From positions 216,485 through 280,484 of IMG/VR virus record IMGVR_UViG_3300028886_000031: DNA of 64,000 nucleotides, one strand, 5' to 3'. This DNA comes from a virus (Duplodnaviria > Heunggongvirae > Uroviricota > Caudoviricetes). The notes under the pieces are model-generated. The model searched no databases. It saw nothing but the letters and a program-made list of their open reading frames with translations, and had not been told where the DNA came from. Below, one piece after another: positions 33,104 to 57,887 of this stretch; the first letter of the stretch is position 1; each line of letters starts with the position of its first letter. The translations under genes and the position numbers were made by a program.

Positions 33104-33115
33104 TTGTTCTTTTTA

Positions 33116-33270: not shown

Positions 33271-33273
33271 TAT

Positions 33274-33388: not shown

Positions 33389-33435
33389 CAAAAAGTCTAT
33401 GACTTTTTTTTCAAAGTTTTTAGAAAGGAGTAATT

Positions 33436-40166: not shown

Positions 40167-40227
40167 TTGGTAATTAATGAACCATTGTTTATTAAGGCTG
40201 ACATGTAATAATTCTATAATCTAACGA

Positions 40228-40980: not shown

Positions 40981-41306
40981 AACCATTCCTTTAATGATTT
41001 GATTGCACATTTAACATCATTTTCTGTACAATCACGAGATAAAGGACCATTTCTATGTCCTAATAAACCAAATTGTGAAGCACTACTTTGTGCCTTATCT
41101 GGATAAAATGTAAATCCACATCTATGTTTTGTTGGTTCACCTCTATATACAATAATGTATGTTTCTCCTCTAGCATTGTGTTCTGATATATGAACATCCT
41201 TATGGTTAGATATAATATTTTTAATTTCAGAAACACCTTTATCATAAATTGGAAATTCTGATTCTTGTGATGTTACAGATTCTAAAAGGAAAGAGTATTG
41301 TTTCAT
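40977..41306 (-). CDS. CTS-tagged internal-protein candidate (109 aa)
   Basis: N-terminus MKQYSFLLESV. Confidence 0.55.
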   Translation of the reverse strand: MKQYSFLLESVTSQESEFPIYDKGVSEIKNIISNHKDVHISEHNARGETYIIVYRGEPTKHRCGFTFYPDKAQSSASQFGLLGHRNGPLSRDCTENDVKCAIKSLKEWL

Positions 41307-42097: not shown

Positions 42098-42717
42098 TAT
42101 TTATCCTTCTTCCATTCTGTACATTTTATTAAAAACTTTACAGAGATCTTATCAACTTTAAATGGTTTTACATTATCTTTAATGACAAATTCCCAAGGTA
42201 TATCATTATCTTGAAAAGCCTTATCTCTATACTTATTATAATCTATATAATAAACATATCCTGTAAATGTTCTTACGAAATCTTTAAATAGAATTTGTTT
42301 TTTATTTGTGTCAAACATAAAAATATCCACTATACTCTTTTGTGGATATGTTGTTTGCATTTTCTTTTTAAATTCTGGATTATGAACTTTTTCACGTAAT
42401 TTTTGTCTCATTCCATTAGTCTTGAATCCCCAGATAAATTTATCTAACTTAATCTTTTTAAGTTCTGGATATTCTTTTATAATTTCATTATATAGAATCT
42501 TACTATCAAAAATAAAATGTGCTGCTGACCATTTAAAAGGAGTTACAAATACACAATCATAACCAAGTCTTCTATCATGAGTTCTACTTCCTTTGATAAG
42601 TTTCATATTTCCATTCTGACTGCCATGATAAACAGTATTATTAAGAATATAAGATTCCTTATCTTGAGTAATACTCAATTGATTTAAAGACTCTGTTAAA
42701 AATGAATAGTGTTTCAT
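42097..42717 (-). CDS. CTS-tagged internal-protein candidate (206 aa)
   Basis: N-terminus MKHYSFLTESL. Confidence 0.55.
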   Translation of the reverse strand: MKHYSFLTESLNQLSITQDKESYILNNTVYHGSQNGNMKLIKGSRTHDRRLGYDCVFVTPFKWSAAHFIFDSKILYNEIIKEYPELKKIKLDKFIWGFKTNGMRQKLREKVHNPEFKKKMQTTYPQKSIVDIFMFDTNKKQILFKDFVRTFTGYVYYIDYNKYRDKAFQDNDIPWEFVIKDNVKPFKVDKISVKFLIKCTEWKKDK

Positions 42718-43523
42718 AATTTTGATGTATTTATCAATATTGGATCCATAAAAGTTTTATGATTTATTTTATCGAATTGTAATTCATGGTTGAATTCTGG
42801 GAACTTTTTAAATATGGAATTATATAACATATCTATATTCTTTATATGATGAATATGACTTGTTCCAAACCGTCCTGTTTTAAACCATTTTGTTCCATCT
42901 TTCATAAAATCATTTTTAATATAAAAGAATTTCTTTTTATTTATATCAAGCTGTGCAAAATAAGATTCTTTTGTATAATAAATATTTTTACATGATGATA
43001 AAGTAATATCAATAAATATAGGAGCTATTTTTTTCATATATCTCATGTTATTATATGGATATATATGCTTCCTGTTTTTCATTATATCACATACTTCATT
43101 ATAGCAATCTGATGTAATGAGATAAGCCTGTGAACCACCTAATCTTATATAATTATCAGAATAGATACAGCCGCACTCATTATCATGTATTAATGTTTTA
43201 GGATCAAAACCAATCTTTACATACCCAAAAGATAACACTCCTTTAAAATTTTTATTAGATAATATATCTAATGTATTATATAATCCACTTAGGTCATTAC
43301 ATGGCCAAGCATCATCTTCATACATTATAAAATAATCTAATTTATTAGGAATTGCATATCTTTTTATAAAATCATATATATTTTGCGAAAGACCTTTTGC
43401 TGCATATAATATTTTCGGGACCGGAATACCACTCTGTGTAAATACAGTTTTTAAAACATTATATTTATAAGCATTTCTTGTTAAAACAAAAGAATTCTTT
43501 CCTAAACTAAACATATTTAACAA
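42714..43523 (-). CDS. glycosyltransferase family 25-like (paralog of 39179-39856), no CTS
   Basis: SFVLTRNAYKYNVLKTVFTQSGIPVPKILYAAKG and FIMYEDDAWP parallel the 39179-39856 motifs. Confidence 0.45.
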   Translation of the reverse strand: MLNMFSLGKNSFVLTRNAYKYNVLKTVFTQSGIPVPKILYAAKGLSQNIYDFIKRYAIPNKLDYFIMYEDDAWPCNDLSGLYNTLDILSNKNFKGVLSFGYVKIGFDPKTLIHDNECGCIYSDNYIRLGGSQAYLITSDCYNEVCDIMKNRKHIYPYNNMRYMKKIAPIFIDITLSSCKNIYYTKESYFAQLDINKKKFFYIKNDFMKDGTKWFKTGRFGTSHIHHIKNIDMLYNSIFKKFPEFNHELQFDKINHKTFMDPILINTSKL

Positions 43524-43534
43524 TCTTTCTAATT

Positions 43535-43915
43535 TTACACTACATGTCTTCGTTTAATACTATTAACAACATGCTTCACATAATCCGGTGCAAAACATTT
43601 AACCCATCTTTCCTTATCGATATATCCGCACCAAGCATCCAAGCACATTAAATGCGAAACATGCTCTTTAAACACTTTAATAATTTCTTTTAAGAATTCT
43701 TTCTTTGAGTCAGGTAAATTTTTGAAAGAATCTGATCTTGTATAATTATTCTCTAAATAATCAATAGCGTTTCTAATATCTCCTGTACAATCATCTTCGC
43801 TATTAGAATTCTTAATATCATTAGCAACTTTTGCAAATGGAATCATTTCACAATCTTCTTCTGTACAAAAATTAGAGAATGAACTAGATTCTGTTATAAA
43901 TGAATATTGTTTCAT
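43535..43915 (-). CDS. CTS-tagged internal-protein candidate (126 aa)
   Basis: N-terminus MKQYSFITESS. Confidence 0.55.
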   Translation of the reverse strand: MKQYSFITESSSFSNFCTEEDCEMIPFAKVANDIKNSNSEDDCTGDIRNAIDYLENNYTRSDSFKNLPDSKKEFLKEIIKVFKEHVSHLMCLDAWCGYIDKERWVKCFAPDYVKHVVNSIKRRHVV

Positions 43916-43916
43916 A

Positions 43917-44153
43917 TTACTTATTTTCCTTTAAAAAATTTCTATATGATTCTGAAATATCTATCCAACTTGTTCCACTTCTACCAAAATATTGGTTAGA
44001 ATCAGATTTTAGAACAATATATCCAATATTATCCTTGAAATTTGAGGATTCTATCAGTTTATCAAATTCGTCCCAATCTTTAATAGCTCTAAAGAATTCT
44101 GGAGCACCATTTAGATCTTTAAGAGTATATGCCTTATTACTTTCCATTTTCAA
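43917..44153 (-). CDS. hypothetical protein (78 aa), no CTS
   Basis: ORF track. It sits between CTS genes. Confidence 0.45.
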   Translation of the reverse strand: MKMESNKAYTLKDLNGAPEFFRAIKDWDEFDKLIESSNFKDNIGYIVLKSDSNQYFGRSGTSWIDISESYRNFLKENK

Positions 44154-44544
44154 TCTCCTTATTCAACTTAACAATCATCTTATGCATCCAATCAAAATCA
44201 ATATCTTTCCAAGTTTTGCCGGATGGTATTGTTAAATTTCTTTCTATTGGTTTAATGTAATGTTGTACTTCTTTTTCATCACCATGTAAATATGGATTAT
44301 CTTCTGGTGTTTTATACATGTAGAATTTTACATTTAAAGTGTTACCGTTAATACGAATAGAAATTTCTGCTCTATTATGACCTTTTGTTTTGGTGTATGA
44401 ACAATAAGTTTCACCACCATCTCCACCAGAAGAACATTTCCAACCTTTAATGCTTCCTAATGCTTTATCTACAATATCAGTAGTAATTGGAAAATCACCA
44501 AACCAAAGTTTTTCTGATTCCGTTAAAAATGAGTAATATTTCAT
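44137..44544 (-). CDS. CTS-tagged internal-protein candidate (135 aa)
   Basis: N-terminus MKYYSFLTESE. Confidence 0.55.
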   Translation of the reverse strand: MKYYSFLTESEKLWFGDFPITTDIVDKALGSIKGWKCSSGGDGGETYCSYTKTKGHNRAEISIRINGNTLNVKFYMYKTPEDNPYLHGDEKEVQHYIKPIERNLTIPSGKTWKDIDFDWMHKMIVKLNKEIENGK

Positions 44545-44915
44545 ATCGGTATCTCTCCATGTATAGCATCAGAAGCATTTTTTATAAAACCTCTTTTGCC
44601 TTTAGCAGTTTTTAAAATAACATCACCAAGTTCTTTCGTATGCACTACATCTTCCGGTATTATTGTTTCCATACCCATTTTCATCCCTTTTTGTAATTGT
44701 TCTTTCCAATTTACTTTTTTTGTTGGATTTAAGACTCTATGTACAACAGCTGGTCCCAATCTTGTAGGCATATCTGGATGATTCTTTAGATATGATTGAG
44801 GAACTTTAACAGATCCAGCACCAATAGCCCCAAGAAGAGATAATATTCCAGCTACACCACTTTTAATTTTTCCTTCTTCTAATATTGTAGGATCTAAGAA
44901 TGAATATTGTTTCAT
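44541..44915 (-). CDS. CTS-tagged internal-protein candidate (about 124 aa; start at the internal MKQYSFLDPT)
   Basis: The ORF track begins MKAMKQYSFL. The conserved block starts at the second Met. Confidence 0.5.
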   Translation of the reverse strand: MKQYSFLDPTILEEGKIKSGVAGILSLLGAIGAGSVKVPQSYLKNHPDMPTRLGPAVVHRVLNPTKKVNWKEQLQKGMKMGMETIIPEDVVHTKELGDVILKTAKGKRGFIKNASDAIHGEIPI

Positions 44916-44948
44916 AGCTTTCAATCTATAATATAATTTTATAGTATT

Positions 44949-45695
44949 TTAATTTATTTTAGATATTCTTTCTATTTCATTCAGAATAATTTTACAATAA
45001 TCTTCATTTTTATATATTTGACACATTTCACATGGACATTCTGAGATATCCATTCGATATTTATTATTTTTATAATGATATATTATGAATTTCTCAATTT
45101 CTAAACTTTTATATTTATCAAAATCCTTAACAGAAATAACATATCTAAAGTTATTTAAATTAAAATTATTATTTTTTAAATATTGTTCCCATTCTTTTAA
45201 CTGATCTACAGTATAATAATTAAATGGTTTTTGTATTAAATCGATTGTATAAAAAAATTTATACTTATTATCCTGAAAATATTGATATCTCATATTTATA
45301 TATTTAGCTTTAGATAAATATTTTGTTGGAAATGGTGATTTATCTAAATGACAAATATAATAATCAGCATCTAAATTAACGGATGCATTATCATATCTGC
45401 AACGTCTCCATACACATTTTTTAGTTAGTCTTTTTATAAATTCACCGTTAAAAAATTCCATTAACATAAAAATTTTATGTATATAATTCATTTCTATTCT
45501 ATAAAAGAAACTCATTTCGCCAGGAACTAAATATGATTGTAATTTATCAATCATTTCACCATGTTTTATTTTTTTTTGAGTATCTTCTTTATAATTATAT
45601 CTCATAAGATGAAATTGTTTGCATGTATTACCAATAGGATAATAAACATTATAATCTGTATTTATTTTATAACAATCTGGTTTTATTACATACAT
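44949..45695 (-). CDS. hypothetical protein (248 aa)
   Basis: ORF track. Confidence 0.5.
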   Translation of the reverse strand: MYVIKPDCYKINTDYNVYYPIGNTCKQFHLMRYNYKEDTQKKIKHGEMIDKLQSYLVPGEMSFFYRIEMNYIHKIFMLMEFFNGEFIKRLTKKCVWRRCRYDNASVNLDADYYICHLDKSPFPTKYLSKAKYINMRYQYFQDNKYKFFYTIDLIQKPFNYYTVDQLKEWEQYLKNNNFNLNNFRYVISVKDFDKYKSLEIEKFIIYHYKNNKYRMDISECPCEMCQIYKNEDYCKIILNEIERISKIN

Positions 45696-45739
45696 AATTT
45701 AGAAACTTTATTAATTTTAATTTATTTTAAAAAATTAAA

Positions 45740-46378
45740 ATGTATAAAATAACTTTACTTATCCTTTTTCCACTTATTCTATTTGGAAATGAATATTATC
45801 TTCCTACCAATAATCTAATTATTTTGAAACATAATACGTATACTATTGGCTATAATACCAATACACTTCAAGCAGCATGGGTGCAATATGTTTTAACATC
45901 AAATCAACTATGTTCTACAGTTAAATTCAAAAGAACTGATGATTTTAGACCGGATCCTTTATTAACAAACATAAATTGTTTTGTTGTAAAACCTTCTTAT
46001 TATAATAAAACTGGATATGATAAAGGACATTTATGTCCAGCACAAGATAGATCTTATAATAAAGAGGCGACATCAGAAACATTTTACATGTCCAATATGA
46101 GTCCACAACTTCCTGGATTTAACAGAGGGTCTTGGAAAAAATTAGAAGAATGGACTAGACAATATGCAATCACAAACGGAAATCCTGTTACAGTTGTAAC
46201 AGGACCAGTTTTTATGGAATATGAAATACATGATTTACATAAACACATTGAATTAAGAGATGGTCACAAGATATGTGTTCCAAATCAATATTTTAAAATA
46301 TTGTTAACAAAAGAATTGGTAAATGAAAGTGAATGTATTACAAACAAGATTATGTTTCTAATGGAGAATAAACAATGA
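45740..46378 (+). CDS. DNA/RNA non-specific endonuclease (NucA/EndoG beta-beta-alpha-Me family) with signal peptide
   Basis: YDKGHLCPAQD matches the (F/Y)DRGH(L/Q)xPA active-site motif. SNMSPQ resembles the SN(I/M)xPQ block. The N-terminus LLILFPLILFG is hydrophobic. Confidence 0.65.
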   Translation: MYKITLLILFPLILFGNEYYLPTNNLIILKHNTYTIGYNTNTLQAAWVQYVLTSNQLCSTVKFKRTDDFRPDPLLTNINCFVVKPSYYNKTGYDKGHLCPAQDRSYNKEATSETFYMSNMSPQLPGFNRGSWKKLEEWTRQYAITNGNPVTVVTGPVFMEYEIHDLHKHIELRDGHKICVPNQYFKILLTKELVNESECITNKIMFLMENKQ

Positions 46379-47082
46379 CAACATTGCCAATAACATTCAG
46401 TACGCATAACAGAACAGAATATGCAACAACATGTCTTAAAAAATTAATAGAAAATTTGAAATTTGATGGAGATATTTATCTTTATATATGTGACGATAGA
46501 TCCACAAAAGAACACATTAATTCATTAATAGAAACATTAAGAACATGTAATTTTTCAAATTATGAAATAATATCTTGTACAGAAGAACATTATGGTTATG
46601 GATATGTTTTAAATACAGCTTTAGATAAAGCATATTCTTATAGTGACGTAGCATTAACAATGGAAGATGATTGGCTTCTCCAAACTAAAACAGATTTTAA
46701 TATACCAGTTAATATGTTACTTAATAACAGTGATAAATATGCTGGAATTAGATTATGTGTAAAAGAAATAGATGGATTAATTCATAACAATTTACCAAAT
46801 AATTTTTTTATGTTTAAAAATGTTCCGAGATTATATTTTGCACATTATGTTTTTCAATGTATGCTAAGACATAAAAAAATATTTGAAAAAATAAGATTCC
46901 TAGAAAATACATTTCCACAACGTGCAGAGTTAGATTTAAAAGACAAATATAAAAAAATAGTTTTAAAACCTAAATTAAATCATTTATTAATGTTAAATTA
47001 TATTCTTCCCGATGGATCTCCTATATTTAAACATATAGGAAAAATTTCGACAATGCCAGGCAATAGAAATAATTATAGATAA
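46375..47082 (+). CDS. glycosyltransferase family 2-like
   Basis: PITFSTHNRTEY...LYICDDRSTKEH resembles the GT2 N-terminal pattern (xxIPxYN....DDGSTD). Confidence 0.45.
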   Translation: MTTLPITFSTHNRTEYATTCLKKLIENLKFDGDIYLYICDDRSTKEHINSLIETLRTCNFSNYEIISCTEEHYGYGYVLNTALDKAYSYSDVALTMEDDWLLQTKTDFNIPVNMLLNNSDKYAGIRLCVKEIDGLIHNNLPNNFFMFKNVPRLYFAHYVFQCMLRHKKIFEKIRFLENTFPQRAELDLKDKYKKIVLKPKLNHLLMLNYILPDGSPIFKHIGKISTMPGNRNNYR

Positions 47083-47101
47083 CAAATTAAAATTTGAACT
47101 T

Positions 47102-48778
47102 ATGAAAATAGCTGTAATTACTCATTTTAATTATAATTCTAATTATGGACAGAGATTACAAAATATATCTCTTGTTACATATCTTAAAAATATTTATCAA
47201 ACAGAAGATATATATACATTTGCATATGATATTCGCGGCTATAAATTAGAAAAAATAAGACATACGGATATAGAAGATAAATATCTAAAATTAATACAAT
47301 TAGATTTTAAAGATCCAAATACATTTATTAATTATGATTTATATGTATTTGGAAGTGATCAAGTTTTTGCATATGCGAAATGGATGTCACAAAATATTAA
47401 AGATATGTTTTATGGAAATTTATTTATAAGATATGGATTTAAACATTTTATATCATATTCATCATCTGCTAATTCACATTTAGATAATTATAAGAAATAT
47501 GTATGCAGTAATTTTAAATATATTTCATTTAGAGAAAAAAATGATGTATTAAAATATAATATTCCAAATAGTATTTATAATATAGATCCTGTATTTTTAC
47601 AGTCTAAAGAATTCTGGGAAAGTTTAGAAAAGAAACCGAATTTTATTAATGAAAATGAAATATTTGATTTTGAATATTCTATAGGAAGAAAAGATTTTGA
47701 GATTACAAAAAAAGATGGTATAAAATACATACATATTTATTTTAATAATTATATTAAATCTAATTGGGTTGGTTATGGTGAATTCCTTTGGTTGATACAT
47801 CATTGCAGAAAATTAATAACATCTAGTTTTCATGGTTTTGCATTTGGTATCATATATCAAAAACCATATATAGAATTTAAACATAATTATAGAATAGATG
47901 ATTTAATAGAAATTTTAAATATAAAATTTGATAATAATGTTATTAATTATGACGAAATACAAGAGAATATTAAAAAAGAACAAGAACGTTCAAAAGAATA
48001 CTTTTTGAAATCTTCTGTTTTTAATTATTGTTGTTACTCTAAAGATAAATATATACATGATAATTCTACATCTGGTGGAGTTTGCCCAGAATTGGCTAAA
48101 TATGTTTTTAATAACAATGGTATTGTTTATGCTGCTAGATATAATAATGATTTTACAAAAGTAATAATAGATTCTGTGGATAATTTGGAAGATTATTTTA
48201 AATATTTTGTTAAATCAAAATATAATTTTAGTTATATGCCTAAATTATCAATTATTAAAGAACAATTAGAAAATGGAAAATTAATTCTGTATATTGGTAG
48301 TCCATGTCAAATTCTAGCATTAAAAACATATCTTAAAAAAGATTATGATAATTTAATACTTGTAGATTTTGAATGCCGAGGTTTTTCTACATCTAAAAAA
48401 TTAGAAAATTTTACCAAAAATATAGAATCGAAATATGGATCTAAAATTAAAAATATTGATTTTAGACCAGATCATAGAGTTGATGGAGTATTAGTTGAAT
48501 TAAATGATGGTAGAACTATTAAATACAAAGTCTCTGTATTTAGAGACTTTGTATTTAGAAGTTTAGAAAAATGCCAAGAATGTAAATTTGATCATGGAAC
48601 AATATCTTATTCAGATATTACTGTAAGTGATTTTTGGTCTAATTCTAAAAATAAATGGAAGCTCGGCAAAGAATTTACACCAGAAAATGGATGTAATCAT
48701 GTAAGAACAAATACATTAAAAGGTTTTATTTTCTTTAATAAAATCAAAGATAAGATATTCTACAAACAATTAAAATAA
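47102..48778 (+). CDS. polysaccharide pyruvyl transferase-like protein (558 aa, two-domain)
   Basis: N-terminal MKIAVITHFNYNSNYGQRLQNISL resembles the PS_pyruv_trans N-terminus. The C-terminal half has a CxxGF/Cys-containing domain. Confidence 0.4.
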   Translation: MKIAVITHFNYNSNYGQRLQNISLVTYLKNIYQTEDIYTFAYDIRGYKLEKIRHTDIEDKYLKLIQLDFKDPNTFINYDLYVFGSDQVFAYAKWMSQNIKDMFYGNLFIRYGFKHFISYSSSANSHLDNYKKYVCSNFKYISFREKNDVLKYNIPNSIYNIDPVFLQSKEFWESLEKKPNFINENEIFDFEYSIGRKDFEITKKDGIKYIHIYFNNYIKSNWVGYGEFLWLIHHCRKLITSSFHGFAFGIIYQKPYIEFKHNYRIDDLIEILNIKFDNNVINYDEIQENIKKEQERSKEYFLKSSVFNYCCYSKDKYIHDNSTSGGVCPELAKYVFNNNGIVYAARYNNDFTKVIIDSVDNLEDYFKYFVKSKYNFSYMPKLSIIKEQLENGKLILYIGSPCQILALKTYLKKDYDNLILVDFECRGFSTSKKLENFTKNIESKYGSKIKNIDFRPDHRVDGVLVELNDGRTIKYKVSVFRDFVFRSLEKCQECKFDHGTISYSDITVSDFWSNSKNKWKLGKEFTPENGCNHVRTNTLKGFIFFNKIKDKIFYKQLK

Positions 48779-48846
48779 ACAAGATTTGCCATTAGTGATG
48801 GACATAATGAAAACGACTAAATCTAATTAAAATCAACTATGCTCCA

Positions 48847-50652
48847 CTATTGCATTTCATATAAACATTCTAATAATTTATCATTATTATCTTTAGAATT
48901 TATTGCTAATCTTATAAACTCGGAATTAGAAAAACCTTTTTTATGAGAACAATCTTTTATAAGAAATGATTTTTTCCATAATCTTTTTAATAATGATTTT
49001 ACATTAAAAGGTTTATTTACTCTACATAAAACATAATTTCCTTCTGATGGGAAAACAGTTAAGAACTTAATTTTAGAAAGTTCATTAATAAACCTATAGC
49101 GTTCATATATAAGTTTTTTACAACTTATTTTATATTCACTATCATATCTATCTAAAATTTGAAGGAAAAATTCACCTATAGAATTAATATTCCATATAGA
49201 AAGATGTTTTTTTATTGTGGATATTATCTCTTTATTACCGCTTGCTATAAATCCTAATCGTACTCCTGGGATACCATAACTCTTAGATATAGATTTTATA
49301 ATACTGACGTGTTTATTAGCATACAAAAAAACATTATTTAATAATGTATAATTATCAATAGCAAAATCCATAAAAGATTCATCTATTAAAATAGATATAT
49401 TATTATTTTTAGCCCATATTACAAGTTTAAAAATATCTTTTTTAGATATAAAATTTCCAGATGGATTATCTGGATTTATTAGAATAATAGAAGATAATGA
49501 CTTATTATTAAAATATTGTATAATATCATCTACTGTATATCTAAATCCATTAGATTGTGGGGCGTTAAATACAATTTTACGATCGTCACTAATTCTGTTA
49601 GAATATTCTTCAAATGTAGGATATATAAAGCCAACTTTACCTTTGCTATTATTCATCCATATATTAATTATTTCAGATGCGCCATTTCCAACAGCAACAA
49701 ATTCATTTTTTAAATTAAAAATTTTAGATACTAATAAAGAGTTAATGTTTTGACCAGATGGATATTTTCTAATAAGATCATCTAGAGAATTTTTAACTTC
49801 CAAAATCATTTTCTCTGATGGATAATATGGATTAACGAGATACGTATAATCTTTAATATTTGGATATCTCCAATAGCCACCATAACGTTCTGATATTTTT
49901 TTAATTTGTGTATCTGGTTTACAAAATATAGATTCCGCAATATTTAAGTCTTGTATATCATCGATTTCATACCATTTCTCATCATTTAATGGCAATGCTT
50001 TAATTAACTTTTTATCTATAGACGTAATTATTTTTAAAACTTGTTCATAATATTCATTATTACTAATAGACTTAATATATACATCTAAAAATGGTACAAG
50101 ATTATTTTTAGAAAATTCTTTAGAAAATTTATATATATTTACAGTTTTATAATAAGAATCTAAATAATTATAATCAAATTTTGTTTTATCTATAAAATTT
50201 ATAATATTATAATCGTTATCCATTTGAATACAAGTACCATCCATCCAGTTCTGATACTTATCTACAACGGCAACATTTTCATATTTAGATTGAATAAGAT
50301 TTGTAATTATACTATCTTGAAAAATAATATCACTTTCCAATAAAATTGTATCATCTTTAATTAATTCATCAGAAGCTATTTTTAAGGAATATATATTATT
50401 TGTTTTGTGATAATCTAAATTTGAAATATATTGTATTGGAATATTGTTCCATTTATTACCTAGATATTTTTCAAGATTTTCTTTTTTATATCCATCTACT
50501 ATTATTATCTTATCTAGGTTAATTTTGGACAATTGATTTAGCATTCTATCTATTAATCTAACGCCATTAATTTTTACCATACATTTTGTATTATTTTTGG
50601 TAAAATTCTTTAAGCGTTTTCCCATTCCAGCTGCTAATATTAATGCTTGCAT
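48847..50652 (-). CDS. bifunctional sugar-phosphate nucleotidyltransferase / class I-II PLP aminotransferase-fold fusion
   Basis: N-terminal MQALILAAGMGKRL is the nucleotidyltransferase signature. C-terminal AVGNGASEIINIW...KSISKSYGIPGVRLGF is aminotransferase/CobD-like. Confidence 0.5.
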   Translation of the reverse strand: MQALILAAGMGKRLKNFTKNNTKCMVKINGVRLIDRMLNQLSKINLDKIIIVDGYKKENLEKYLGNKWNNIPIQYISNLDYHKTNNIYSLKIASDELIKDDTILLESDIIFQDSIITNLIQSKYENVAVVDKYQNWMDGTCIQMDNDYNIINFIDKTKFDYNYLDSYYKTVNIYKFSKEFSKNNLVPFLDVYIKSISNNEYYEQVLKIITSIDKKLIKALPLNDEKWYEIDDIQDLNIAESIFCKPDTQIKKISERYGGYWRYPNIKDYTYLVNPYYPSEKMILEVKNSLDDLIRKYPSGQNINSLLVSKIFNLKNEFVAVGNGASEIINIWMNNSKGKVGFIYPTFEEYSNRISDDRKIVFNAPQSNGFRYTVDDIIQYFNNKSLSSIILINPDNPSGNFISKKDIFKLVIWAKNNNISILIDESFMDFAIDNYTLLNNVFLYANKHVSIIKSISKSYGIPGVRLGFIASGNKEIISTIKKHLSIWNINSIGEFFLQILDRYDSEYKISCKKLIYERYRFINELSKIKFLTVFPSEGNYVLCRVNKPFNVKSLLKRLWKKSFLIKDCSHKKGFSNSEFIRLAINSKDNNDKLLECLYEMQ

Positions 50653-50697
50653 TTATATCACCTGTATATATTTCTGATGATTTAGCCCATGAAATAT

Positions 50698-51846
50698 TTA
50701 TATTATATAATCTTTATATTCTTCTTGACCCAATATCAAATTAATAATATTATCTGTTGGAGTTTTTCCATTTGGATATTTTTTACAGTATTTTTCTATG
50801 TGTTCTTTTCTAATATCACGCTTTATATCATTTCCATCTATAACATTTTGAACGAATGTTCTTAAACTATCGTTCGGACCACATAATTCATGACTGTTAA
50901 TAGCATCTTTGCATATTTCTGTATGATTAGTTTTTAAGATATTCATAGACAAATCATTTGTCATATAACAAACTGGTTTATCCATATAAAGATATTCACA
51001 TTTAAATGATCCACAATCATGAATCATTGCATCTGAATATCTGAAATATGGAACATAATTTTCGGAACAATCTATAGTGAATAATTCAGCTAAATAATCT
51101 AACTTATTAAATATATCTTTTACAATATTCATTGGCAAAAATTTATATATTCTATTTGTTAGTCTACACCAACTATAATATAATAAAGGATGTGGTCTTA
51201 TTATAAAATCAACTTCTGAGTTAAATTCTTTTAATGAACAAATATCTTTATATCTGTTTAAAAAGTCACTCTTGTCGACTTTGTTACTACGGCCTAATGT
51301 CCAATGAGGACAAATCAATATACGCTTTTTTGTACTTGGTTCTAGTGCATATTCATCTTTCCAAGGATCTTCAAGATGTTCTTTGGGAATATTAAGGACT
51401 TCTTCGAAAGGATTTCCTGTTTCTACTATATGATTAGGTTTTTGATTATAATCTCCTTTTCTACATATACCAATTAAACAATCCTTAAACATCTTATAGT
51501 AAGAGCTATCTGTATCAAAAGCATATGGAACAAATAGAAATTTTCTATTCTTAAGAATAGTATTCATTGTAGAAATATCACAATATCTTTCTTTATGAGG
51601 ATCCGATGGAATTATCAAATCAAAATCATTATAATTATCTATTGTAATATCATATATAGATTTTGTTTCTATAACATTAAAACGCTTATGTTTCTTTAAC
51701 TTTTCAACTAATGGCTCAATTTTAGATTTGAGTTTATCATAAACAAATTGTGTTCCATCTACCTTCGTATTTCCTTTATATCTAATTACACAAACATTGA
51801 TTTTATCTTTAGAACGAATATTGTCTAATATTTCAGATCTTGTCAT
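50698..51846 (-). CDS. CDP-alcohol/glycerophosphotransferase-like (TagB/TagF family?) protein
   Basis: ILICPHWTLG resembles the IL(Y/F)APTWR motif of Glyphos_transf. The start was moved to the internal Met MTRSEILD, which has RBS TGAGGTA 8 nt upstream and avoids an 83-nt overlap. Confidence 0.4.
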   Translation of the reverse strand: MTRSEILDNIRSKDKINVCVIRYKGNTKVDGTQFVYDKLKSKIEPLVEKLKKHKRFNVIETKSIYDITIDNYNDFDLIIPSDPHKERYCDISTMNTILKNRKFLFVPYAFDTDSSYYKMFKDCLIGICRKGDYNQKPNHIVETGNPFEEVLNIPKEHLEDPWKDEYALEPSTKKRILICPHWTLGRSNKVDKSDFLNRYKDICSLKEFNSEVDFIIRPHPLLYYSWCRLTNRIYKFLPMNIVKDIFNKLDYLAELFTIDCSENYVPYFRYSDAMIHDCGSFKCEYLYMDKPVCYMTNDLSMNILKTNHTEICKDAINSHELCGPNDSLRTFVQNVIDGNDIKRDIRKEHIEKYCKKYPNGKTPTDNIINLILGQEEYKDYII

Positions 51847-51862
51847 TTTAAGTACCTCATTT

Positions 51863-52681
51863 TTAACATCTATTAAAGAGTTTATTACATAAATTATGTA
51901 ATTCGTTATGAACATCTGATCCATTGCCAAATATTTCATGTTCAAAATTTTGAATTAATAATGGCTGTATATATTTTATTGTTTGTTTATTAATAATTTT
52001 AACAATGGCAGTTCTTCCATCTATTTTTCCTACATATTTAACTGGTATTCCCATAGCAATACAAGGTAAATATATATGCAATCTAGATGTATATACAATC
52101 TTAGCATTCTCTTTGAGATATTTCAAACGATTATATGCTACACTTTCCATTTCTAATTCTGTTCTATTATGGTGATGAACTAATTGAGTTAAAGAAACAG
52201 AATTTTTTTCTGAATGTGATTTTACAAAATTATTTCCACAATCAATAAAAATAATCTTATCATTTTTCTGATTGATATTTGAAAAATCTAATAAATTAGC
52301 CATTAATGATGGACATAATGAAACATACGAATTCGGACATTGATCCTTAAATAATTCATACGTTTTAAAGTCTCGACAACCAAATCTTTTATTAGTTCTA
52401 AGATCTTTTATTTTATTAGAGCAATGAAATCCTATATAATTATATACATCTTTCTTATTATTCCAAAATTTTGTATTTGAAGTTTCTACAGTTGAAAAAA
52501 ATCCACTCATAATCATTACATCGTTGTCTTTAAAATCAAAACGATCTATTTTATCTCTTCTTACATAATTAGAGTCTATATTATGTTTTTTTATAAAATT
52601 ACGAAGGCATAATATATAAATGAAATCACCTAAATTATGATGACGATACCTGTAATTAGTACATGAAATTGTATATATCAT
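51863..52681 (-). CDS. polysaccharide pyruvyl transferase-like protein
   Basis: YTSRLHIYLPCIAMGIPVKYVG resembles the PS_pyruv_trans C-terminal block (TSRLHAaI.Al..G.P). Confidence 0.4.
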   Translation of the reverse strand: MIYTISCTNYRYRHHNLGDFIYILCLRNFIKKHNIDSNYVRRDKIDRFDFKDNDVMIMSGFFSTVETSNTKFWNNKKDVYNYIGFHCSNKIKDLRTNKRFGCRDFKTYELFKDQCPNSYVSLCPSLMANLLDFSNINQKNDKIIFIDCGNNFVKSHSEKNSVSLTQLVHHHNRTELEMESVAYNRLKYLKENAKIVYTSRLHIYLPCIAMGIPVKYVGKIDGRTAIVKIINKQTIKYIQPLLIQNFEHEIFGNGSDVHNELHNLCNKLFNRC

Positions 52682-52995
52682 AAATCGATCTTCTTAATTA
52701 ATTCACAAAGTCTGTTGTAAACATTATCTTCTTTATATCTCAGACATTCGTTATTGTTATATTTAATACTCAATACACATTGTTTATCATGTTCATTTAA
52801 TGTACATTCTCTAGGTTTTCCGTTTACAACCTCATAACAATGTGGATCATCACATAACAAACTTCTCAAGTGTGCTTGGTTGTTTCCACACAAACCATAC
52901 ACATCTCCTAATCCAATCCACTTTAGAACTTGTCTAATTTCTTTGAGAAGTTCTACATCTTTTTTATTAAAACTTTTCTTTTTAAACCAAAACAT
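52678..52995 (-). CDS. hypothetical Cys-containing protein (105 aa)
   Basis: ORF track. Confidence 0.45.
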   Translation of the reverse strand: MFWFKKKSFNKKDVELLKEIRQVLKWIGLGDVYGLCGNNQAHLRSLLCDDPHCYEVVNGKPRECTLNEHDKQCVLSIKYNNNECLRYKEDNVYNRLCELIKKIDL

Positions 52996-53475: not shown

Positions 53476-53549
53476 TGTCCAGTGATGTAATGGCAGCATA
53501 GGGGTTTTTGATACCCTTCGAGACCGTTCAAATCGGTCCTGGACAACCA
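53476..53549 (+). tRNA. tRNA-Gln (anticodon UUG), CCA encoded
   Basis: Acceptor TGTCCAG/CTGGACA. Anticodon arm GGGGT-TTTTGAT-ACCCT. T-arm GACCG-TTCAAAT-CGGTC. Confidence 0.75.
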
Positions 53550-53696: not shown

Positions 53697-54308
53697 ATGA
53701 AAGCTAAAGATTCATTTATAGAGATATTGAAAAAAGTAGATCGTTTTGCTATAAATACAGTAATAGAAAATTTAACAAATGGAGGTTTCTTTGAAGCACC
53801 AGCATCAACAAAATATCATGGTGACTACCCAGGAGGTCTCGTTGAACATTCTTTAAATGTATATGAACAAGCTATGTATCTGTGGAAAGTAGAACAGAAA
53901 GTTAGAAAAGATGTTGTTAAAGATATAACAGAAGAGAACATTATTGTAGCATCATTGCTACATGATGTTTGCAAAATGGATCTTTATCATCTTACAAAGA
54001 AGTGGAAAAAGGATGAAAACAATAAATGGATTCAATATGATGCCTATGAAAAGAAATATGAGGAAATGCCTGTTGGACATGGAGAAAAAAGTGTCATTAG
54101 GTTATTGTCTTGGGGTCTCACATTAATGGAACAAGAAATATTGGCAATTAGATGGCACATGGGAGGATTTGATTTATCGGACTATCAAGACGCTAGAAGA
54201 TGTTTTGAGACAGCTGCAGATAAATATGCTTTAGTTCCAATTATTGTCTCTGCTGATTGGTTAGCAAGTAGAATTAAAGAAAGAGACGACAAAAAAGAAG
54301 GAGAATAA
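53697..54308 (+). CDS. HD-domain phosphohydrolase (YfbR-like)
   Basis: GGLVEHSLNV and ASLLHDVCKMD are the H...HD motifs of the HD superfamily. Confidence 0.55.
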   Translation: MKAKDSFIEILKKVDRFAINTVIENLTNGGFFEAPASTKYHGDYPGGLVEHSLNVYEQAMYLWKVEQKVRKDVVKDITEENIIVASLLHDVCKMDLYHLTKKWKKDENNKWIQYDAYEKKYEEMPVGHGEKSVIRLLSWGLTLMEQEILAIRWHMGGFDLSDYQDARRCFETAADKYALVPIIVSADWLASRIKERDDKKEGE

Positions 54309-54310
54309 CA

Positions 54311-54643
54311 ATGGAAAAGTTCACTTATAAAACACAATATGGTGATTATGAAAATTGTTTCTTTCGAGTTGGTAAATATCCAAATGGCAATATAGCAATC
54401 TCTATCATTAGTGAAAATGATGGTCCAATTACACATTGTACAACAAATACAGGAATGAAACTTTCTGATGATAGAATTGCTGTTAAATATTGGTCAGAAA
54501 ATGAAGGAATGGAAGAATTTCTAATCCAAATGGGAATTATAGAACCAGACCCATGTGATATAGATATAAACTCTCCAATGACTCCAGATATATATAAACT
54601 CACAGAAAAAGGCATAAATCTAATTAAAGAACAACTTAGTTGA
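54311..54643 (+). CDS. hypothetical protein (110 aa)
   Basis: ORF track. It lies between the HD and NMNAT genes. Confidence 0.5.
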   Translation: MEKFTYKTQYGDYENCFFRVGKYPNGNIAISIISENDGPITHCTTNTGMKLSDDRIAVKYWSENEGMEEFLIQMGIIEPDPCDIDINSPMTPDIYKLTEKGINLIKEQLS

Positions 54644-54695
54644 ATAAATGTTCAATAACATTTCAAGTATTTCGTTAACTTGTTAGGAGAAAGAA

Positions 54696-55655
54696 ATGGA
54701 AAACAACAAAGAAAAGATTGCCGTGATAGTCGGCAGATTCCAAGTAGCTGAACTTACTCAAGGTCACTTGGATTTATTTAGAAAAGTTATAGATGATGAC
54801 TATGGAAGTATACTTCTTGTCCTAGGTTTATCACCTACAAAATGTACACAAAGAAATCCATTAGATTTCGAATCTCGTAGATTAATGTTCGAGGAAGAAT
54901 TTCCTGGGAAACTTACTATACAATATCTAAGAGATGAAGCTAGTGATTCTGTATGGTCTGTTAATTTAGATCGTATAATAGATGATATACGCGGAAATAG
55001 AGATGTTGTTCTTATAGGAAGTAGAGATTGTTTCTATGATTGCTATGATGGATGTTATAAAAATAATTTTATAGAATATGTTCCTAAAGTATATACAAGT
55101 GGAAGTGAACAGAGAAAATCACTTTCAAGACAGATTAAATCCAATAAGTATTGGAGAGCTGGTTGTATTTATGCCACAATGAACCAGTATCCATCAGTAT
55201 ATGCTACAGTAGATTGTGCTATATTTAACGATATGTCTCTAGATAAAATTTATTTAGCTAGAAAGGAAAATGAATATTCATATAGATTTGTAGGTGGATT
55301 TAGTTCTCCCACGGATTCTAGTTTTGAAGCAGCAGCTAGAAGAGAGGCAGCAGAGGAAACAAAACTAGAGACTACAATCATTCAATATATTGGAAGTCGT
55401 AAAATAGATGATTGGCGTTATAGATCAGAGACTAATAAAATTATTACCAATTTCTATGCTATGGTAAAGAATTGGGGTAGAGCACAACCTAGTGATGATA
55501 TTAAGGAATTATATCTCGTAGATTTTAATACATTGAGTGAGAATGATATTATGCCAGAGCATAGAGAGTTATTTAATATGCTCTGCAATTGGAGAACCGC
55601 ATATATACTTAAAAATCCAAGTATAAAAGATGCAGTTATTAAACAACTCGATTAA
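54696..55655 (+). CDS. natV: bifunctional NMN adenylyltransferase / Nudix hydrolase (NadM-Nudix, NatV-type)
   Basis: N-terminal IAVIVGRFQVAELTQGH is the archaeal-type NMNAT motif. The C-terminal Nudix box is GGFSSPTDSSFEAAARREAAEETKLE. Confidence 0.7.
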   Translation: MENNKEKIAVIVGRFQVAELTQGHLDLFRKVIDDDYGSILLVLGLSPTKCTQRNPLDFESRRLMFEEEFPGKLTIQYLRDEASDSVWSVNLDRIIDDIRGNRDVVLIGSRDCFYDCYDGCYKNNFIEYVPKVYTSGSEQRKSLSRQIKSNKYWRAGCIYATMNQYPSVYATVDCAIFNDMSLDKIYLARKENEYSYRFVGGFSSPTDSSFEAAARREAAEETKLETTIIQYIGSRKIDDWRYRSETNKIITNFYAMVKNWGRAQPSDDIKELYLVDFNTLSENDIMPEHRELFNMLCNWRTAYILKNPSIKDAVIKQLD

Positions 55656-55700
55656 GTATCTTGTTAAGGTTAATTCGTTACAAAGACAAGGAGAAAAACA

Positions 55701-57149
55701 ATGGAAAATGAATTCAATATTATGTTAGCCAGTGATAGCTATAAGTTCGGTCACTGGAAGGCGTACATGCCAGATACAGAATATGTATATTCTTACTTAG
55801 AAGCACGTAAAGGTGCCAAGTTTAATAAAACATTATGGTTTGGACTTCAATCAATTATTCTAAAATATCTTAGTGGAACAGTTGTAACAGATCAGAAAAT
55901 TAGAGAAGCTAAAAGTTATATTGATTTACATCTTGGTAAAGGTGTTTTTAATGAAGATGGTTGGAGATACGTATTAAACAACTATAACGGTCGCTTACCA
56001 ATTCGTATAAATGCAGTAGAAGAAGGTAAACTTGTAGATGTTGGAAATGTTTTGATGACTGTAGAAAATACAGATCCAAATGTTCCATGGCTTACAAATT
56101 ATCTAGAAACTATATTAATGCAGGTTTGGTATCCTACAACTGTTGCAACACAAGATTGGGAAACAAAACAATTGTTGAAATATTATCTTCAACGTACTGG
56201 ATGTTCTGAAAAAGGACTTCCATTCATGTTGCATGGTTTTGGTATGAGAGCAGCAACTTCTTACGAAAGTTGTGCTCTTGCTGATGCTGCACACTTAATT
56301 AACTTTAAAGGTACAGATACAGTTCCAGCATTAAAATTTATATGCGAATATTATGGAAAAACTTTAACATGTAGAAATATTCAAGAAATACAAGAGAATC
56401 CAAGTATTGATTTTCCCGGATATAGTGTTTTTGCTACAGAACACAGCATTATGACTTCTAGAGGTGAAGCTGGTGAATGGGATGTAGTAGAAAACATATT
56501 TAAGGCATGTCCATCTGGCATATGCAGCATTGTTATTGATAGTTATGATTATAGAAGATTTATCAATACATGTGGTCAAAGATTTTACGAAACAATTATG
56601 AATAGGGATGGCAAAACCGTATTTAGACCGGACTCCGGCGATCCCATTTCTACTACATTAGACGTATTGGAATTGCTAGATAGTCATTTTGGATCCACAA
56701 AAAATGCTGCTGGATTTAAAGTTTTAAATCCAAAAATTGGCGTTTTGTGGGGTGATGGAATAGATTACAATGGTGTTCGTGATATTCTCTTTGCAATGTT
56801 TAATGCTGGATGGGCAGCAGAAAACATTGTATTTGGCATGGGTGGTCACATGGTTCAATCCGGATTAACAAGAGATACAATGCGTTTTGCATTTAAGTGT
56901 TCAGCACAATACTATAAAGGTGAATGGCATGATGTTTGGAAACATCCAATAGATATTACTAAAGCATCTAAGCGTGGTCGTTTAGCATTATTACATGTTA
57001 AAGGACAAGATGGAAATATGTTCTATAAAACCATTAGGGATTTTGAATTAAAGAATCCAAATGATAATCAGTTAAGATGTATATTTGAAAACGGATATTT
57101 ACGTGAGCGTGTATCATTTGATGATGTAAAGATAAATTCTACATTATAG
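55701..57149 (+). CDS. nadV: nicotinamide phosphoribosyltransferase (NAMPT)
   Basis: N-terminus MLASDSYKFGHWKAY and internal GFGMRAATSYESCALADAAHLINFKGTDT are NAMPT family signatures. Length is 482 aa. Confidence 0.75.
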   Translation: MENEFNIMLASDSYKFGHWKAYMPDTEYVYSYLEARKGAKFNKTLWFGLQSIILKYLSGTVVTDQKIREAKSYIDLHLGKGVFNEDGWRYVLNNYNGRLPIRINAVEEGKLVDVGNVLMTVENTDPNVPWLTNYLETILMQVWYPTTVATQDWETKQLLKYYLQRTGCSEKGLPFMLHGFGMRAATSYESCALADAAHLINFKGTDTVPALKFICEYYGKTLTCRNIQEIQENPSIDFPGYSVFATEHSIMTSRGEAGEWDVVENIFKACPSGICSIVIDSYDYRRFINTCGQRFYETIMNRDGKTVFRPDSGDPISTTLDVLELLDSHFGSTKNAAGFKVLNPKIGVLWGDGIDYNGVRDILFAMFNAGWAAENIVFGMGGHMVQSGLTRDTMRFAFKCSAQYYKGEWHDVWKHPIDITKASKRGRLALLHVKGQDGNMFYKTIRDFELKNPNDNQLRCIFENGYLRERVSFDDVKINSTL

Positions 57150-57329
57150 TAGAGTAAAGACAATTTCACTTAGGTTCCCTGCTGTAGTTTAATTAAAACA
57201 TCATTGTCCTTCAATAAACCATGGAGTGTTGAAGGACGGTGAAGATGTCGGTACGATTGCAATCCAGCTGGCTCTGATCGAGTTAATCCAGACTGGCAGG
57301 GAATCTATCTAAAAGAAGGAGAGTGTGGA

Positions 57330-57887
57330 ATGATTCATTTGATAACTGGAGATGGATTAGGTGAAGATTATGAAAAAGAATTACGTTCATATATACAAGA
57401 AACAGATACTTTTGATTTTGAAGAAGTAGAAAAACATTCTATTGAATATATAAATAGATTTTTTGATGTAGAGGATACTAAAGAATTGAAATTTTGTTGT
57501 TTATCACCTTATGGTGATTTAATTACAAAAGCACAGATTCTTGACCTTTGCGTACTTGAAAATTTGCAAAATAAAAAGGCTGTTCTATTTGATCCAATGA
57601 ATTTTGTACATCCATATTATAAAAGAAAATTTACAAATAAAGTATGTGAATTATGTTCTAAGAACAAGCATAATTTTACAATCGTTACAAATGATGTAAA
57701 TATTATGACGGAAATTAGATTATGTGTTAAAGATAAAATTCTAAATTCAACTGATGTAAAAACAACATTCTATTGGAAAGATGAAAAGATAGATCTTAGG
57801 ATTTCTGAATATGGTTGTTATCAAGATTATCCAGACCATTTTTATGATCATGATTATGTAGATCAGTTAACAAGGTTATTTGACTAA
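57330..57887 (+). CDS. hypothetical protein (185 aa)
   Basis: ORF track. RBS aagaaggagagtgtggaATG. Confidence 0.5.
   Translation: MIHLITGDGLGEDYEKELRSYIQETDTFDFEEVEKHSIEYINRFFDVEDTKELKFCCLSPYGDLITKAQILDLCVLENLQNKKAVLFDPMNFVHPYYKRKFTNKVCELCSKNKHNFTIVTNDVNIMTEIRLCVKDKILNSTDVKTTFYWKDEKIDLRISEYGCYQDYPDHFYDHDYVDQLTRLFD

What the first reader, a model, noticed from the sequence alone, without database searches (positions are those of the whole stretch)
53697..57149. NAMPT (NadV) + NMNAT-Nudix (NatV) NAD+ salvage pair with an upstream HD hydrolase, followed by a GC-rich structured intergenic element
The 482-aa NAMPT and the bifunctional NMNAT/Nudix enzyme are the same two-enzyme set as KVP40 NadV/NatV. 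This pair has been described as a NAD+ reconstitution pathway (NARP2-type) that lets phages survive NAD+-depleting defense systems such as Thoeris, DSR and SEFIR effectors.

Here they are preceded by a YfbR-like HD phosphohydrolase and a 110-aa unknown. These may extend the pathway, for example by processing ADPR or (deoxy)nucleotides.

Downstream, 57150-57329 is ORF-free and GC-elevated. It has nested inverted repeats: GGTTCCCTGC...GCAGGGAATC enclose CCTTCAA...TTGAAGG and duplicated AATCCAGCTGG/AATCCAGACTGG. That suggests an sRNA, riboswitch-like element or complex terminator.
Basis: partly seen in the sequence, partly recalled or inferred. Interest (0 to 1): 0.6.

Follow-up and report, generated by a model that had tools for sequence, protein, structure and literature searches.

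The report
Phage NAD salvage genes plus new RNA
An uncultured giant phage carries the already-known two-enzyme NAD+ rebuilding pair, the neighbouring HD gene is a nuclease-like passenger rather than part of that pathway, and the GC-rich spacer after the pair is a real, conserved, about 137-base folded RNA of unknown function that matches no described RNA family.

Summary

NadV (482 aa) is a clear NAMPT. NatV (319 aa) is an NMNAT-Nudix fusion of the NadM-Nudix type. Together they form an ordinary NARP2-type pair, on a 322-kb metagenomic phage contig.

The surprise is the spacer. A covariance model built from 57171-57307 found diverged full-length copies in two related phages, in different gene contexts. 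One copy lies directly upstream of a NadK-like-NatV-NadV operon. A fourth relative carries an internally deleted copy. Of 41 base pairs, 17 show changes on both sides (0 of 500 shuffles reach this). The unpaired junctions and loops are nearly invariant, and the fold is specific to the + strand. There is no Rfam match, no U-tract, no SD sequestration and no conserved ORF.

The element is most likely a cis-acting or processed intercistronic RNA. Its function is unproven.

The parts
53476..53549 (+). tRNA-Gln(ttg). It is the first feature of the co-directional + strand block that contains the NAD genes (context).
   Evidence: ARAGORN. Sequence.
53697..54308 (+). Stand-alone HD-domain protein (203 aa) with a YhaM-type HD fold. 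Probably a nucleic-acid 3'-end nuclease or phosphodiesterase. Not YfbR-like.
54311..54643 (+). 110-aa DUF4313-like protein of unknown function. It travels with the HD gene.
54696..55655 (+). NatV: bifunctional NMN adenylyltransferase (N-terminal, GRFQ...TQGH motif) plus a Nudix hydrolase domain.
   Evidence: Pfam NUDIX 7.6e-10. Weak NCBIfam hit to the bifunctional NMNAT/Nudix model. A profile of 6 relatives hits NadM-Nudix 2qjt and 2qjo in both domains.
55701..57149 (+). NadV: nicotinamide phosphoribosyltransferase (NAMPT).
   Evidence: Pfam NAMPT_N 2.6e-34 and NAPRTase 2e-33. NCBIfam NF006629, 525 bits against a cut-off of 405. PHROG 448 8e-143. PDB NAMPT 5e-114.
57171..57307 (+). Conserved structured RNA motif, about 137 nt.
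- P1: 57171-57183 with 57295-57307.
- P1a: 57187-57190 with 57196-57199.
- P2: 57201-57216 with 57227-57242.
- P3: 57247-57252 with 57267-57272, and 57255-57257 with 57262-57264.
- Alternative P4: 57273-57276 with 57289-57292.
- Conserved single strands: 57184-57200, the P2 loop 57217-57226, and 57273-57294.
   Evidence: Folding. Covariance-model hits in L006, L007, L010, L018, L019 and L004. Covariation count. Independent RNAalifold run. No Rfam match.
57315..57321 (+). Shine-Dalgarno sequence GAAGGAG of the next gene. It begins 7 nt after the 3' end of P1 and is not paired in the predicted structures.
   Evidence: Sequence. Pairing probabilities of 0.12 or less. Consensus structure.
57330..57887 (+). 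185-aa protein of unknown function, the gene that follows the RNA motif here. In relatives the motif is followed by unrelated genes.
   Evidence: No Pfam, PHROG or NCBIfam hit. Only 3 clusters of relatives. Contexts.

Best explanation
The window is part of a 322-kb uncultured jumbo phage, 28.6% GC and rich in tRNA genes.

NAD genes. NadV converts nicotinamide and PRPP to NMN. The N-terminal domain of NatV adenylylates NMN to NAD+. Its Nudix domain probably hydrolyses ADP-ribose or a related dinucleotide. This is the KVP40-type NARP2 route, which in tested phages refills NAD+ that Thoeris, DSR and similar defences destroy. The enzyme identities are shown here. The anti-defence role is inferred from KVP40.

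Passenger genes. The HD gene (YhaM-type nuclease-like fold) and the DUF4313-like gene travel as accessory genes in the same variable island. They are not steps of the pathway.

The RNA. The spacer encodes a genuine structured RNA of about 137 nt on the + strand. A 13-bp closing stem (P1) encloses a small hairpin, a 16-bp hairpin (P2), a sequence-invariant hairpin (P3) and a conserved single-stranded segment, CUCUGRUCG(A)GUUAAUCCA.
- It is co-transcribed with the flanking genes. In L007 only 6 nt separate it from the preceding stop codon.
- It ends 16-22 nt before the next start codon in every context.

My best reading is that it acts at the RNA level. It may be an intercistronic processing, stability or translation element for the transcript it sits in. 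Or it may be cut out as a small stable RNA, in the way the scattered tRNA genes of this genome are laid out.

Shown: the RNA is real, conserved and strand-specific. Inferred: what it does.
For: Enzymes. The NatV-NadV pair is adjacent in all nine fetched loci that show both genes. NARP2 is defined and tested in bioRxiv 10.1101/2024.02.11.579819.

HD gene:
- YhaM is a 3'-exonuclease on RNA and ssDNA (PMC12107432 and PMC11347170).
- Of 80 IMG/VR loci with an HD relative, 1 has NadV and 0 have NatV. The neighbours there are RecT, SSB, ERF and VRR-NUC genes.
- More distant NARP2 loci lack HD and u110.

RNA motif:
- z = -5.9.
- Covariance-model hits: L006 9615-9750 at 143 bits, L007 2880-3014 at 72 bits rising to 128 bits with the second model, and L004 as a truncated copy.
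- 17 of 41 pairs changed on both sides, against 6.4 +/- 1.8 in shuffles (0 of 500). 94% of cells are paired, against 32-47% when partners are slid.
- A MAFFT plus RNAalifold run that was not fitted to the model recovers P1, P1a, P2 and P3, with 12 compensatory pairs.
- Many conserved G-U pairs, a weaker fold on the - strand (-44.9 against -56.5 kcal/mol) and much weaker model hits on the - strand all point to a + strand RNA.
- Between the window and L018 there is 1 substitution in 57160-57312. NadV shows 123 of 1449 and the next gene 22 of 558 (binomial P of about 0.01 to 1e-4 depending on the baseline).
- Single-base indels in L006 and L007 break the only + strand ORF, so the element is not coding.
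Against: - No transcript data exist. No promoter or terminator is predicted at the element.
- Only four distinct full-length sequences and one truncated copy are known, all from one phage clade. The first covariation count used an alignment fitted to the structure.
- L004 lost the inner 75 nt yet keeps the same flanking genes, so the inner part is dispensable at least there.
- L018 and L019 carry an uncompensated C-A mismatch in P2.
- The anti-defence role of NARP2 is extrapolated from KVP40, whose NAMPT is only about 39-42% identical.
- The host is unknown.
Confidence: 0.6

Rival explanations
1. The RNA is a riboswitch or protein-binding leader. It senses a metabolite, possibly NAD-related such as NAD+, NMN, ADPR, nicotinamide or PRPP, and controls the gene immediately downstream.
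For: - It has a multi-helix junction with nearly invariant unpaired nucleotides and covarying stems.
- In all four contexts it ends 16-22 nt before the next start codon.
- In L007 it lies directly upstream of a NadK-like-NatV-NadV operon.
- In all three lineages it lies within about 3 kb of the NAD genes.
Against: - The downstream genes are unrelated to each other: a 185-aa unknown, a 101-aa unknown and a NadK-like gene.
- In the window it lies after the NAD genes, not before them.
- The SD is unpaired in the MFE and consensus folds. No alternative terminator or antiterminator pairing is conserved: the CCUUC/GAAGG alternative in the window (I3) is lost in L006.
- There is no match to the NAD+-I, NAD+-II or any other Rfam riboswitch.
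- tRNA genes of this genome sit 21-57 nt before ORFs too, so closeness to the next start codon does not discriminate.
Confidence: 0.17
2. It is only an elaborate transcription terminator or RNase III site that closes the NAD gene cassette.
For: - Relatives have plain strong hairpins, several with U-tracts, at the same place after the NAD module (L006, L014, L016).
- The truncated L004 version is a 16-bp hairpin followed by UUAUUU (z = -8.3).
- P1 is followed by a weakly U-rich AUUUA or AUUUU in L006, L007 and L004.
Against: - The window copy has no U-tract, and the terminator scan finds nothing there.
- A terminator does not need about 60 nt of invariant single-stranded sequence and an invariant P3.
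- In L006 and L007 the element does not follow the NAD genes at all. In L007 it precedes them.
Confidence: 0.13
3. The element acts as DNA. It would be a recombination or mobile-element site, or an operator with palindromes (CCATGG, TTAATTAA, CAGCTG), and that would explain its presence in different gene contexts.
For: - It occurs in three different gene contexts.
- It is nearly identical between the window and L018 although the flanks differ by 4-9%.
- It contains several palindromes and a direct repeat of AATCCAG.
Against: - The stems covary through G-U intermediates, and conserved G-U pairs would be C-A mismatches on the other strand.
- The fold and the model scores are clearly better on the + strand.
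- There is only one copy per locus, no second copy in the 64-kb window and no flanking duplications.
- No recombinase or transposase gene lies next to it.
Confidence: 0.06
4. The HD and 110-aa proteins extend the NAD pathway, for example by processing ADPR, NMN or nucleotides.
For: - HD (and u110 in L006 and L018) stays within about 2 kb of NatV and NadV in three rearranged gene orders within this clade.
Against: - The best fold match by a wide margin is the nuclease YhaM.
- The family has more than 7,500 members. In 80 IMG/VR loci it is almost never next to NAD genes and is often next to recombination genes.
- NARP2 loci with 56-64% identical NadV lack it.
- The described pathway extension, for NARP1, uses a Macro-domain phosphatase, not an HD protein.
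Confidence: 0.08

Closest known systems
NARP2 (Vibrio phage KVP40 NadV/Nampt + NatV/Nmnat-Nudix)
   Same: It has the same two enzymes, the same domain architecture (NAMPT_N + NAPRTase; NMNAT + Nudix) and adjacent, co-directional genes.
   Different: - NAMPT is only about 39-42% identical to those of cultured phages.
- The first Glu of the Nudix box is replaced (Gx6S instead of Gx5E) in most of this clade.
- Some relatives add a NAD-kinase-like gene.
- The host is unknown and no function was tested.
YhaM (3'-5' exonuclease of Firmicutes, PDB 9h3f), HD domain
   Different: The phage protein lacks YhaM's N-terminal OB-fold domain. Sequence similarity is marginal (E 0.02) and 16% identical. Its activity is unknown.
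Scattered tRNA genes and small stable RNAs of large phages (for example T4 rnaC and rnaD, recalled from my own knowledge)
   Same: It is a GC-rich, compact RNA closed by a terminal stem. It sits between co-directional ORFs in a tRNA-rich accessory region. The helix order around the junction recalls a class II tRNA cloverleaf.
   Different: It is not a tRNA by ARAGORN or Rfam. It has no D-loop or T-loop signatures and no CCA. There is no sequence similarity to any INPHARED phage.
Known NAD+ riboswitches (nadA motif, class I; pnuC motif, class II) and other Rfam cis-regulators
   Same: It is a structured RNA in the neighbourhood of NAD genes and close to a ribosome-binding site.
   Different: There is no covariance-model match even at E<=10. 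The size and architecture differ, and no expression platform was detected.

Membership tests
NARP2 (phage NAD+ reconstitution pathway 2) | A Nampt homologue of the KVP40 clade (NAMPT_N plus the NAPRTase catalytic domain) | tested here: met
   The LHxFG and NFKGTDT motifs align with solved NAMPTs.
NARP2 (phage NAD+ reconstitution pathway 2) | An Nmnat homologue encoded in the same phage, here fused to Nudix as in KVP40 NatV | tested here: met
   The profile hits NadM-Nudix 2qjt and 2qjo in both domains. GRFQ...TQGH and SGSEQR motifs are present. The gene is adjacent to NadV.
NARP2 (phage NAD+ reconstitution pathway 2) | No NARP1 (Adps) in the same genome | tested here: inconclusive
   A Pfam scan of 82 window ORFs found one type I PRTase of 174 aa (21702-22223) but no Prs-like protein. 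Only 64 kb of the 322-kb contig was seen.
NARP2 (phage NAD+ reconstitution pathway 2) | Restores NAD+ and overcomes NAD+-depleting defence | not testable with these tools
   This needs infection or co-expression assays. It is known only for KVP40 genes.
YfbR-type HD 5'-deoxynucleotidase | Closest sequence or fold relationship to YfbR (Pfam HD_3, PDB 2paq) | tested here: not met
YhaM 3'-5' exonuclease | N-terminal OB-fold followed by the HD domain | tested here: not met
   The HD domain matches. The 203-aa protein has no OB-fold domain: the model is helical with a single beta-hairpin. It works like a YhaM HD domain at most and is not a YhaM orthologue.
DUF4313 (PF14190) | Match to the Pfam model | tested here: inconclusive
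   The window protein itself gives no hit. 12 of 55 relatives do, the best at 7.8e-8.
Intrinsic (Rho-independent) terminator | A GC-rich hairpin followed directly by a U-tract | tested here: not met
   P1 is followed by UCUAAAAG. The scan finds no terminator in 57150-57329.
Riboswitch | A conserved aptamer plus an expression platform with mutually exclusive pairings; membership of a described class | tested here: inconclusive
   An aptamer-like conserved junction is present. No conserved SD or terminator alternative was found. No Rfam class matches. Ligand binding is not testable here.
tRNA / tRNA-like gene | A cloverleaf with D- and T-loop signatures, detectable by ARAGORN or Rfam RF00005 | tested here: not met
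   No call was made, even with introns allowed and a relaxed score.

The most novel reading that the evidence does not exclude
The 137-nt RNA is the founding member of a new class of phage RNA tied to the NAD+ arms race. It would be either a riboswitch for an NAD-related metabolite that tunes genes next to the NARP2 module, or a processed trans-acting RNA that acts on host defence.

It may also sit in a jumbo virus whose host is a rumen methanogen. Two things hint at this: intron-bearing tRNA genes, and Methanobrevibacter proteins as the closest named cellular NAMPT relatives.
Probability: 0.12. Interest if true: 0.8.

Novelty: new variant of a known kind. Interest (0 to 1): 0.5.

Why it matters
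The NAD+ salvage pair is a routine new member of NARP2. It adds only that very large, AT-rich, uncultured rumen or gut phages carry it, sometimes together with a NAD-kinase-like gene.

There are two useful corrections. First, HD genes next to NAD genes should not be read as pathway extensions without a test of co-occurrence. Second, the spacer is not noise. It is a conserved, covarying, strand-specific RNA that no library describes, and it moves among gene contexts inside the accessory island that holds the NAD genes.

Orphan structured RNAs in phages are few, and most have led to new regulation or counter-defence biology once studied. This one is short enough for direct biochemical testing.

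Tried and rejected
- blastn of the region and of the element against INPHARED phages found no real match.
- Exact or degenerate pattern scans of IMG/VR and of JGI metagenomes found nothing.
- One IMG/VR scan gave 4 hits, which the covariance model rejected as chance.
- One 20-mer scan of 185,579 genomes gave a single chance hit, in a coding region of a Chitinophagaceae MAG.
- The search for related loci with NadV and with the downstream protein found no IMG/VR relatives.
- No second copy was found in the window, by blastn-short or by either covariance model.
- Rfam gave no real match at gathering score or at E<=10 on two diverged copies. The only hits were weak chance matches to miRNA and snoRNA families.
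- A protein-fragment origin was rejected. Three stop-free frames gave no Pfam hit, and single-base indels break the frame in relatives.
- A hammerhead or other ribozyme, and a tRNA or tmRNA, were considered from motifs such as CUGAUCGAG and GUUAAUCC. Neither has support from Rfam or ARAGORN.
- Pairing of the AAUCCAG repeats with GAUGGAUU in the next gene (I6 and I8) was judged to be chance-level 7-mers in a constrained coding sequence.
- My initial reading from L004 alone was 'terminator hairpin with a lineage-specific 75-nt insertion'. I dropped it once full-length diverged copies turned up. L004 is better seen as an internal deletion.
Full report
**1. What is there**

The ORF list confirms four co-directional genes.
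- 53697-54308: 203 aa, with a weak Pfam HD hit.
- 54311-54643: 110 aa, with no family hit.
- 54696-55655: 319 aa, with a Nudix domain at residues 171-293.
- 55701-57149: 482 aa, with NAMPT_N and NAPRTase domains.

These are followed by a 180-nt gap and then a 185-aa ORF at 57330. A tRNA-Gln gene (53476-53549) precedes the block.

The window is 28.6% GC. The gap is 41.7% GC and its inner 75 nt are 49.3% GC.

**2. Source**

Exactly this NAMPT is encoded on a 321.6-kb contig that was assembled independently in ENA and JGI data.
- Nothing in INPHARED matches at the DNA level.
- The best cultured-phage NAMPTs are 39-42% identical.
- IMG/VR holds no close relative.

The source is therefore an uncultured jumbo phage. 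Several record names point to rumen studies. That reading is mine and is not verified.

**3. The NAD genes**

NadV matches several independent resources:
- the NCBIfam NAMPT/NAPRT equivalog, at 525 bits against a cut-off of 405;
- PHROG 448, at 8e-143;
- solved NAMPTs, at 5e-114, with the LHxFG and NFKGTDT regions aligned.

NatV alone gives only a Nudix hit. A profile of six relatives matches the two solved NadM-Nudix enzymes, 2qjt and 2qjo, in both the adenylyltransferase and the Nudix halves. The GRFQ...TQGH and SGSEQR motifs are invariant or nearly so.

The pair stays adjacent in every relative fetched, down to 56% NadV identity, in either gene order.

This is the NARP2 pair. Osterman et al. 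defined it from KVP40 and showed that it defeats Thoeris and DSR2 (bioRxiv 10.1101/2024.02.11.579819). The enzyme identities are shown here. The counter-defence role is inferred.

**4. The HD and 110-aa genes**

The HD protein belongs to a very large family of stand-alone proteins of about 200 aa: more than 7,500 clusters, PHROG 28876.

Within this phage clade the HD gene stays within about 2 kb of the NAD genes in three different orders. Outside the clade the link disappears.
- NARP2 loci with 56-64% identical NadV have no HD or u110 within 8 kb.
- Among 80 IMG/VR loci with HD relatives, one has a NadV homologue and none has NatV or u110.
- The neighbours in those loci are RecT, ERF, SSB, VRR-NUC, ERCC4 and RecA genes. 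That fits a nuclease that works on nucleic-acid ends (YhaM function: PMC12107432 and PMC11347170).

The 110-aa protein belongs to a family with 533 representatives. 12 of 55 scanned relatives hit DUF4313. Its confident model has no solved relative.

I conclude that both genes are passengers in the same accessory island.

**5. The spacer: first pass**

The gap folds better than shuffles. It matches no Rfam family and has no second copy in the window. It has no terminator-like U-tract.

The first relatives I found misled me.
- L004 has only a 16-bp hairpin at this position and lacks the inner 75 nt.
- L006, L014 and L016 have plain terminators after the NAD module.
- L018 and L019 carry the element almost unchanged. 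There is 1 substitution in 57160-57312, while NadV differs at 123 of 1449 sites and the next gene at 22 of 558. The deficit is significant, with P of about 0.01 to 1e-4 depending on the baseline.

With only these sequences, covariation could not be tested.

**6. The spacer: decisive result**

A covariance model built from 57171-57307 found full-length diverged copies elsewhere in loci I already held:
- L006 9615-9750, at 143 bits;
- L007 2880-3014 and L010 802-936, at 72 bits, rising to 128 bits for L007 with the second model;
- the truncated L004 copy.

Covariation is strong. On the five-sequence alignment, 17 of 41 pairs change on both sides, against a shuffle mean of 6.4 (0 of 500 shuffles reach 17). 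94% of cells are paired, against 32-47% when partners are slid. P1 has 7 compensatory pairs and P2 has 10.

That alignment was fitted to the model, so I repeated the analysis with plain MAFFT plus RNAalifold on longer stretches. The same P1, P1a, P2 and P3 came back, with 12 compensatory pairs.

The unpaired parts are nearly invariant: GUAGUUUAAnnAAAACA, the P2 loop CAUGG, P3 with ACGAUUGnAAUC, and CUCUGRUCG(A)GUUAAUCCA.

Three observations show that it works as a + strand RNA and is not coding. Conserved G-U pairs are numerous. The - strand folds and scores worse. Single-base indels destroy the only + strand ORF.

**7. Context of the RNA**

- Window, L018 and L019: NadV | RNA | 185-aa unknown.
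- L006: methyltransferase-like 272 aa | RNA | 101-aa unknown. NadV lies 3.2 kb upstream and a NadK-like gene about 1.3 kb downstream.
- L007: a homologous methyltransferase-like 312 aa | RNA | NadK-like 257 aa, then NatV and NadV.

The RNA is always on the coding strand. It begins 6-41 nt after the preceding stop codon and ends 16-22 nt before the next start codon. The SD is left unpaired.

With only 6 nt of upstream spacer in L007, the RNA must be co-transcribed with the preceding gene. tRNA genes in this genome have a similar layout, lying 21-57 nt before the next ORF.

**8. Interpretation**

The data establish a new structured RNA motif in the accessory island that holds the NAD genes and tRNAs in this phage clade. 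They do not establish its function.

I rank the possibilities as follows.
- A cis-acting or processed intercistronic RNA comes first. It would act in stability, processing or translation, or be excised as a stable small RNA.
- A ligand- or protein-sensing leader comes second. The L007 placement before the NAD(P) operon is suggestive. Against it, the downstream genes differ and no expression platform is conserved.
- A mere terminator comes third.
- A DNA-level site comes last.

**9. Limits**

- There are only four distinct full-length sequences, all from one clade.
- There are no expression data.
- Only 64 kb of the genome was seen.
- The host is unknown.

Noticed in passing
window 32916-33436 and 23678-23869: These GC-rich, ORF-free stretches hold tRNA-like genes with encoded CCA and 42-100-nt insertions at or near the canonical intron position.

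At a relaxed score it also calls tRNA-Gly 32928-33103, tRNA-Leu 33274-33388 and tRNA-Tyr 23678-23869. Default ARAGORN and Rfam miss them.

Small introns of this kind are typical of archaea and eukaryotes, not bacteria or their phages.
   Followed up: partly
whole window; one search hit list: The host may be a methanogen. The best named cellular relatives of the NAMPT are Methanobrevibacter proteins (50-54% identity). The genome is 28.6% GC and carries the intron-bearing tRNA genes noted above. A 322-kb virus of a methanogen would be remarkable. This was not tested.
   Followed up: no
L014 5786-6478; L007 3033-3806; L006 11089-11449: A NAD-kinase-like gene (weak PF20143 hits; 37% identity between the L007 and L014 proteins) lies next to NatV and NadV in some relatives. 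This suggests a three-gene NadK-NatV-NadV variant that would also supply NADP+.
   Followed up: partly
window 21702-22223 (+): A 174-aa type I phosphoribosyltransferase (PF00156, 7e-9), another PRPP-using enzyme, lies about 32 kb from the NAD genes.
   Followed up: no
window 36539-36943 (+): A 134-aa ORF of about 47% GC sits in a 28.6% GC genome and looks recently acquired. Strong hairpins lie on both sides.
   Followed up: no
window 57102-57111 (3' end of NadV): There are 8 substitutions within 10 nt between the window and L018, right before a nearly invariant stretch. NadV is also equally distant (about 9% at the nucleotide level) from L018 and L004, although the downstream genes group the window with L018. 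This points to mosaic recombination at the cassette edge.
   Followed up: partly
window 54696-55655 (NatV Nudix box, residues about 200-224): The first glutamate of the Nudix signature is replaced (GGFSSPTDSS...RREAAEETKL), with one extra residue in the spacer. Among the relatives aligned, only L014 keeps the Glu. The REx2EE catalytic core is intact.
   Followed up: no
window about 40200-52700 and 880-2270: The window holds a large set of polysaccharide-modification genes: pyruvyl transferases, glycosyltransferases, an aminotransferase, nucleotidyl transferases and a TupA-like ATP-grasp. It also holds RNA-repair-like genes (HAD_SAK_2 at 34352-34825, a PP-loop ATPase at 30662-31306, YqeY at 34809-35261). 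All are in the same phage window.
   Followed up: no
L007 6500-6600: A different long GC-rich extended hairpin (20-bp stem) follows NadV in L007-L010. It is followed by two apparent tRNA genes (recognised by eye from the sequence) in a 670-nt ORF-free stretch.
   Followed up: no
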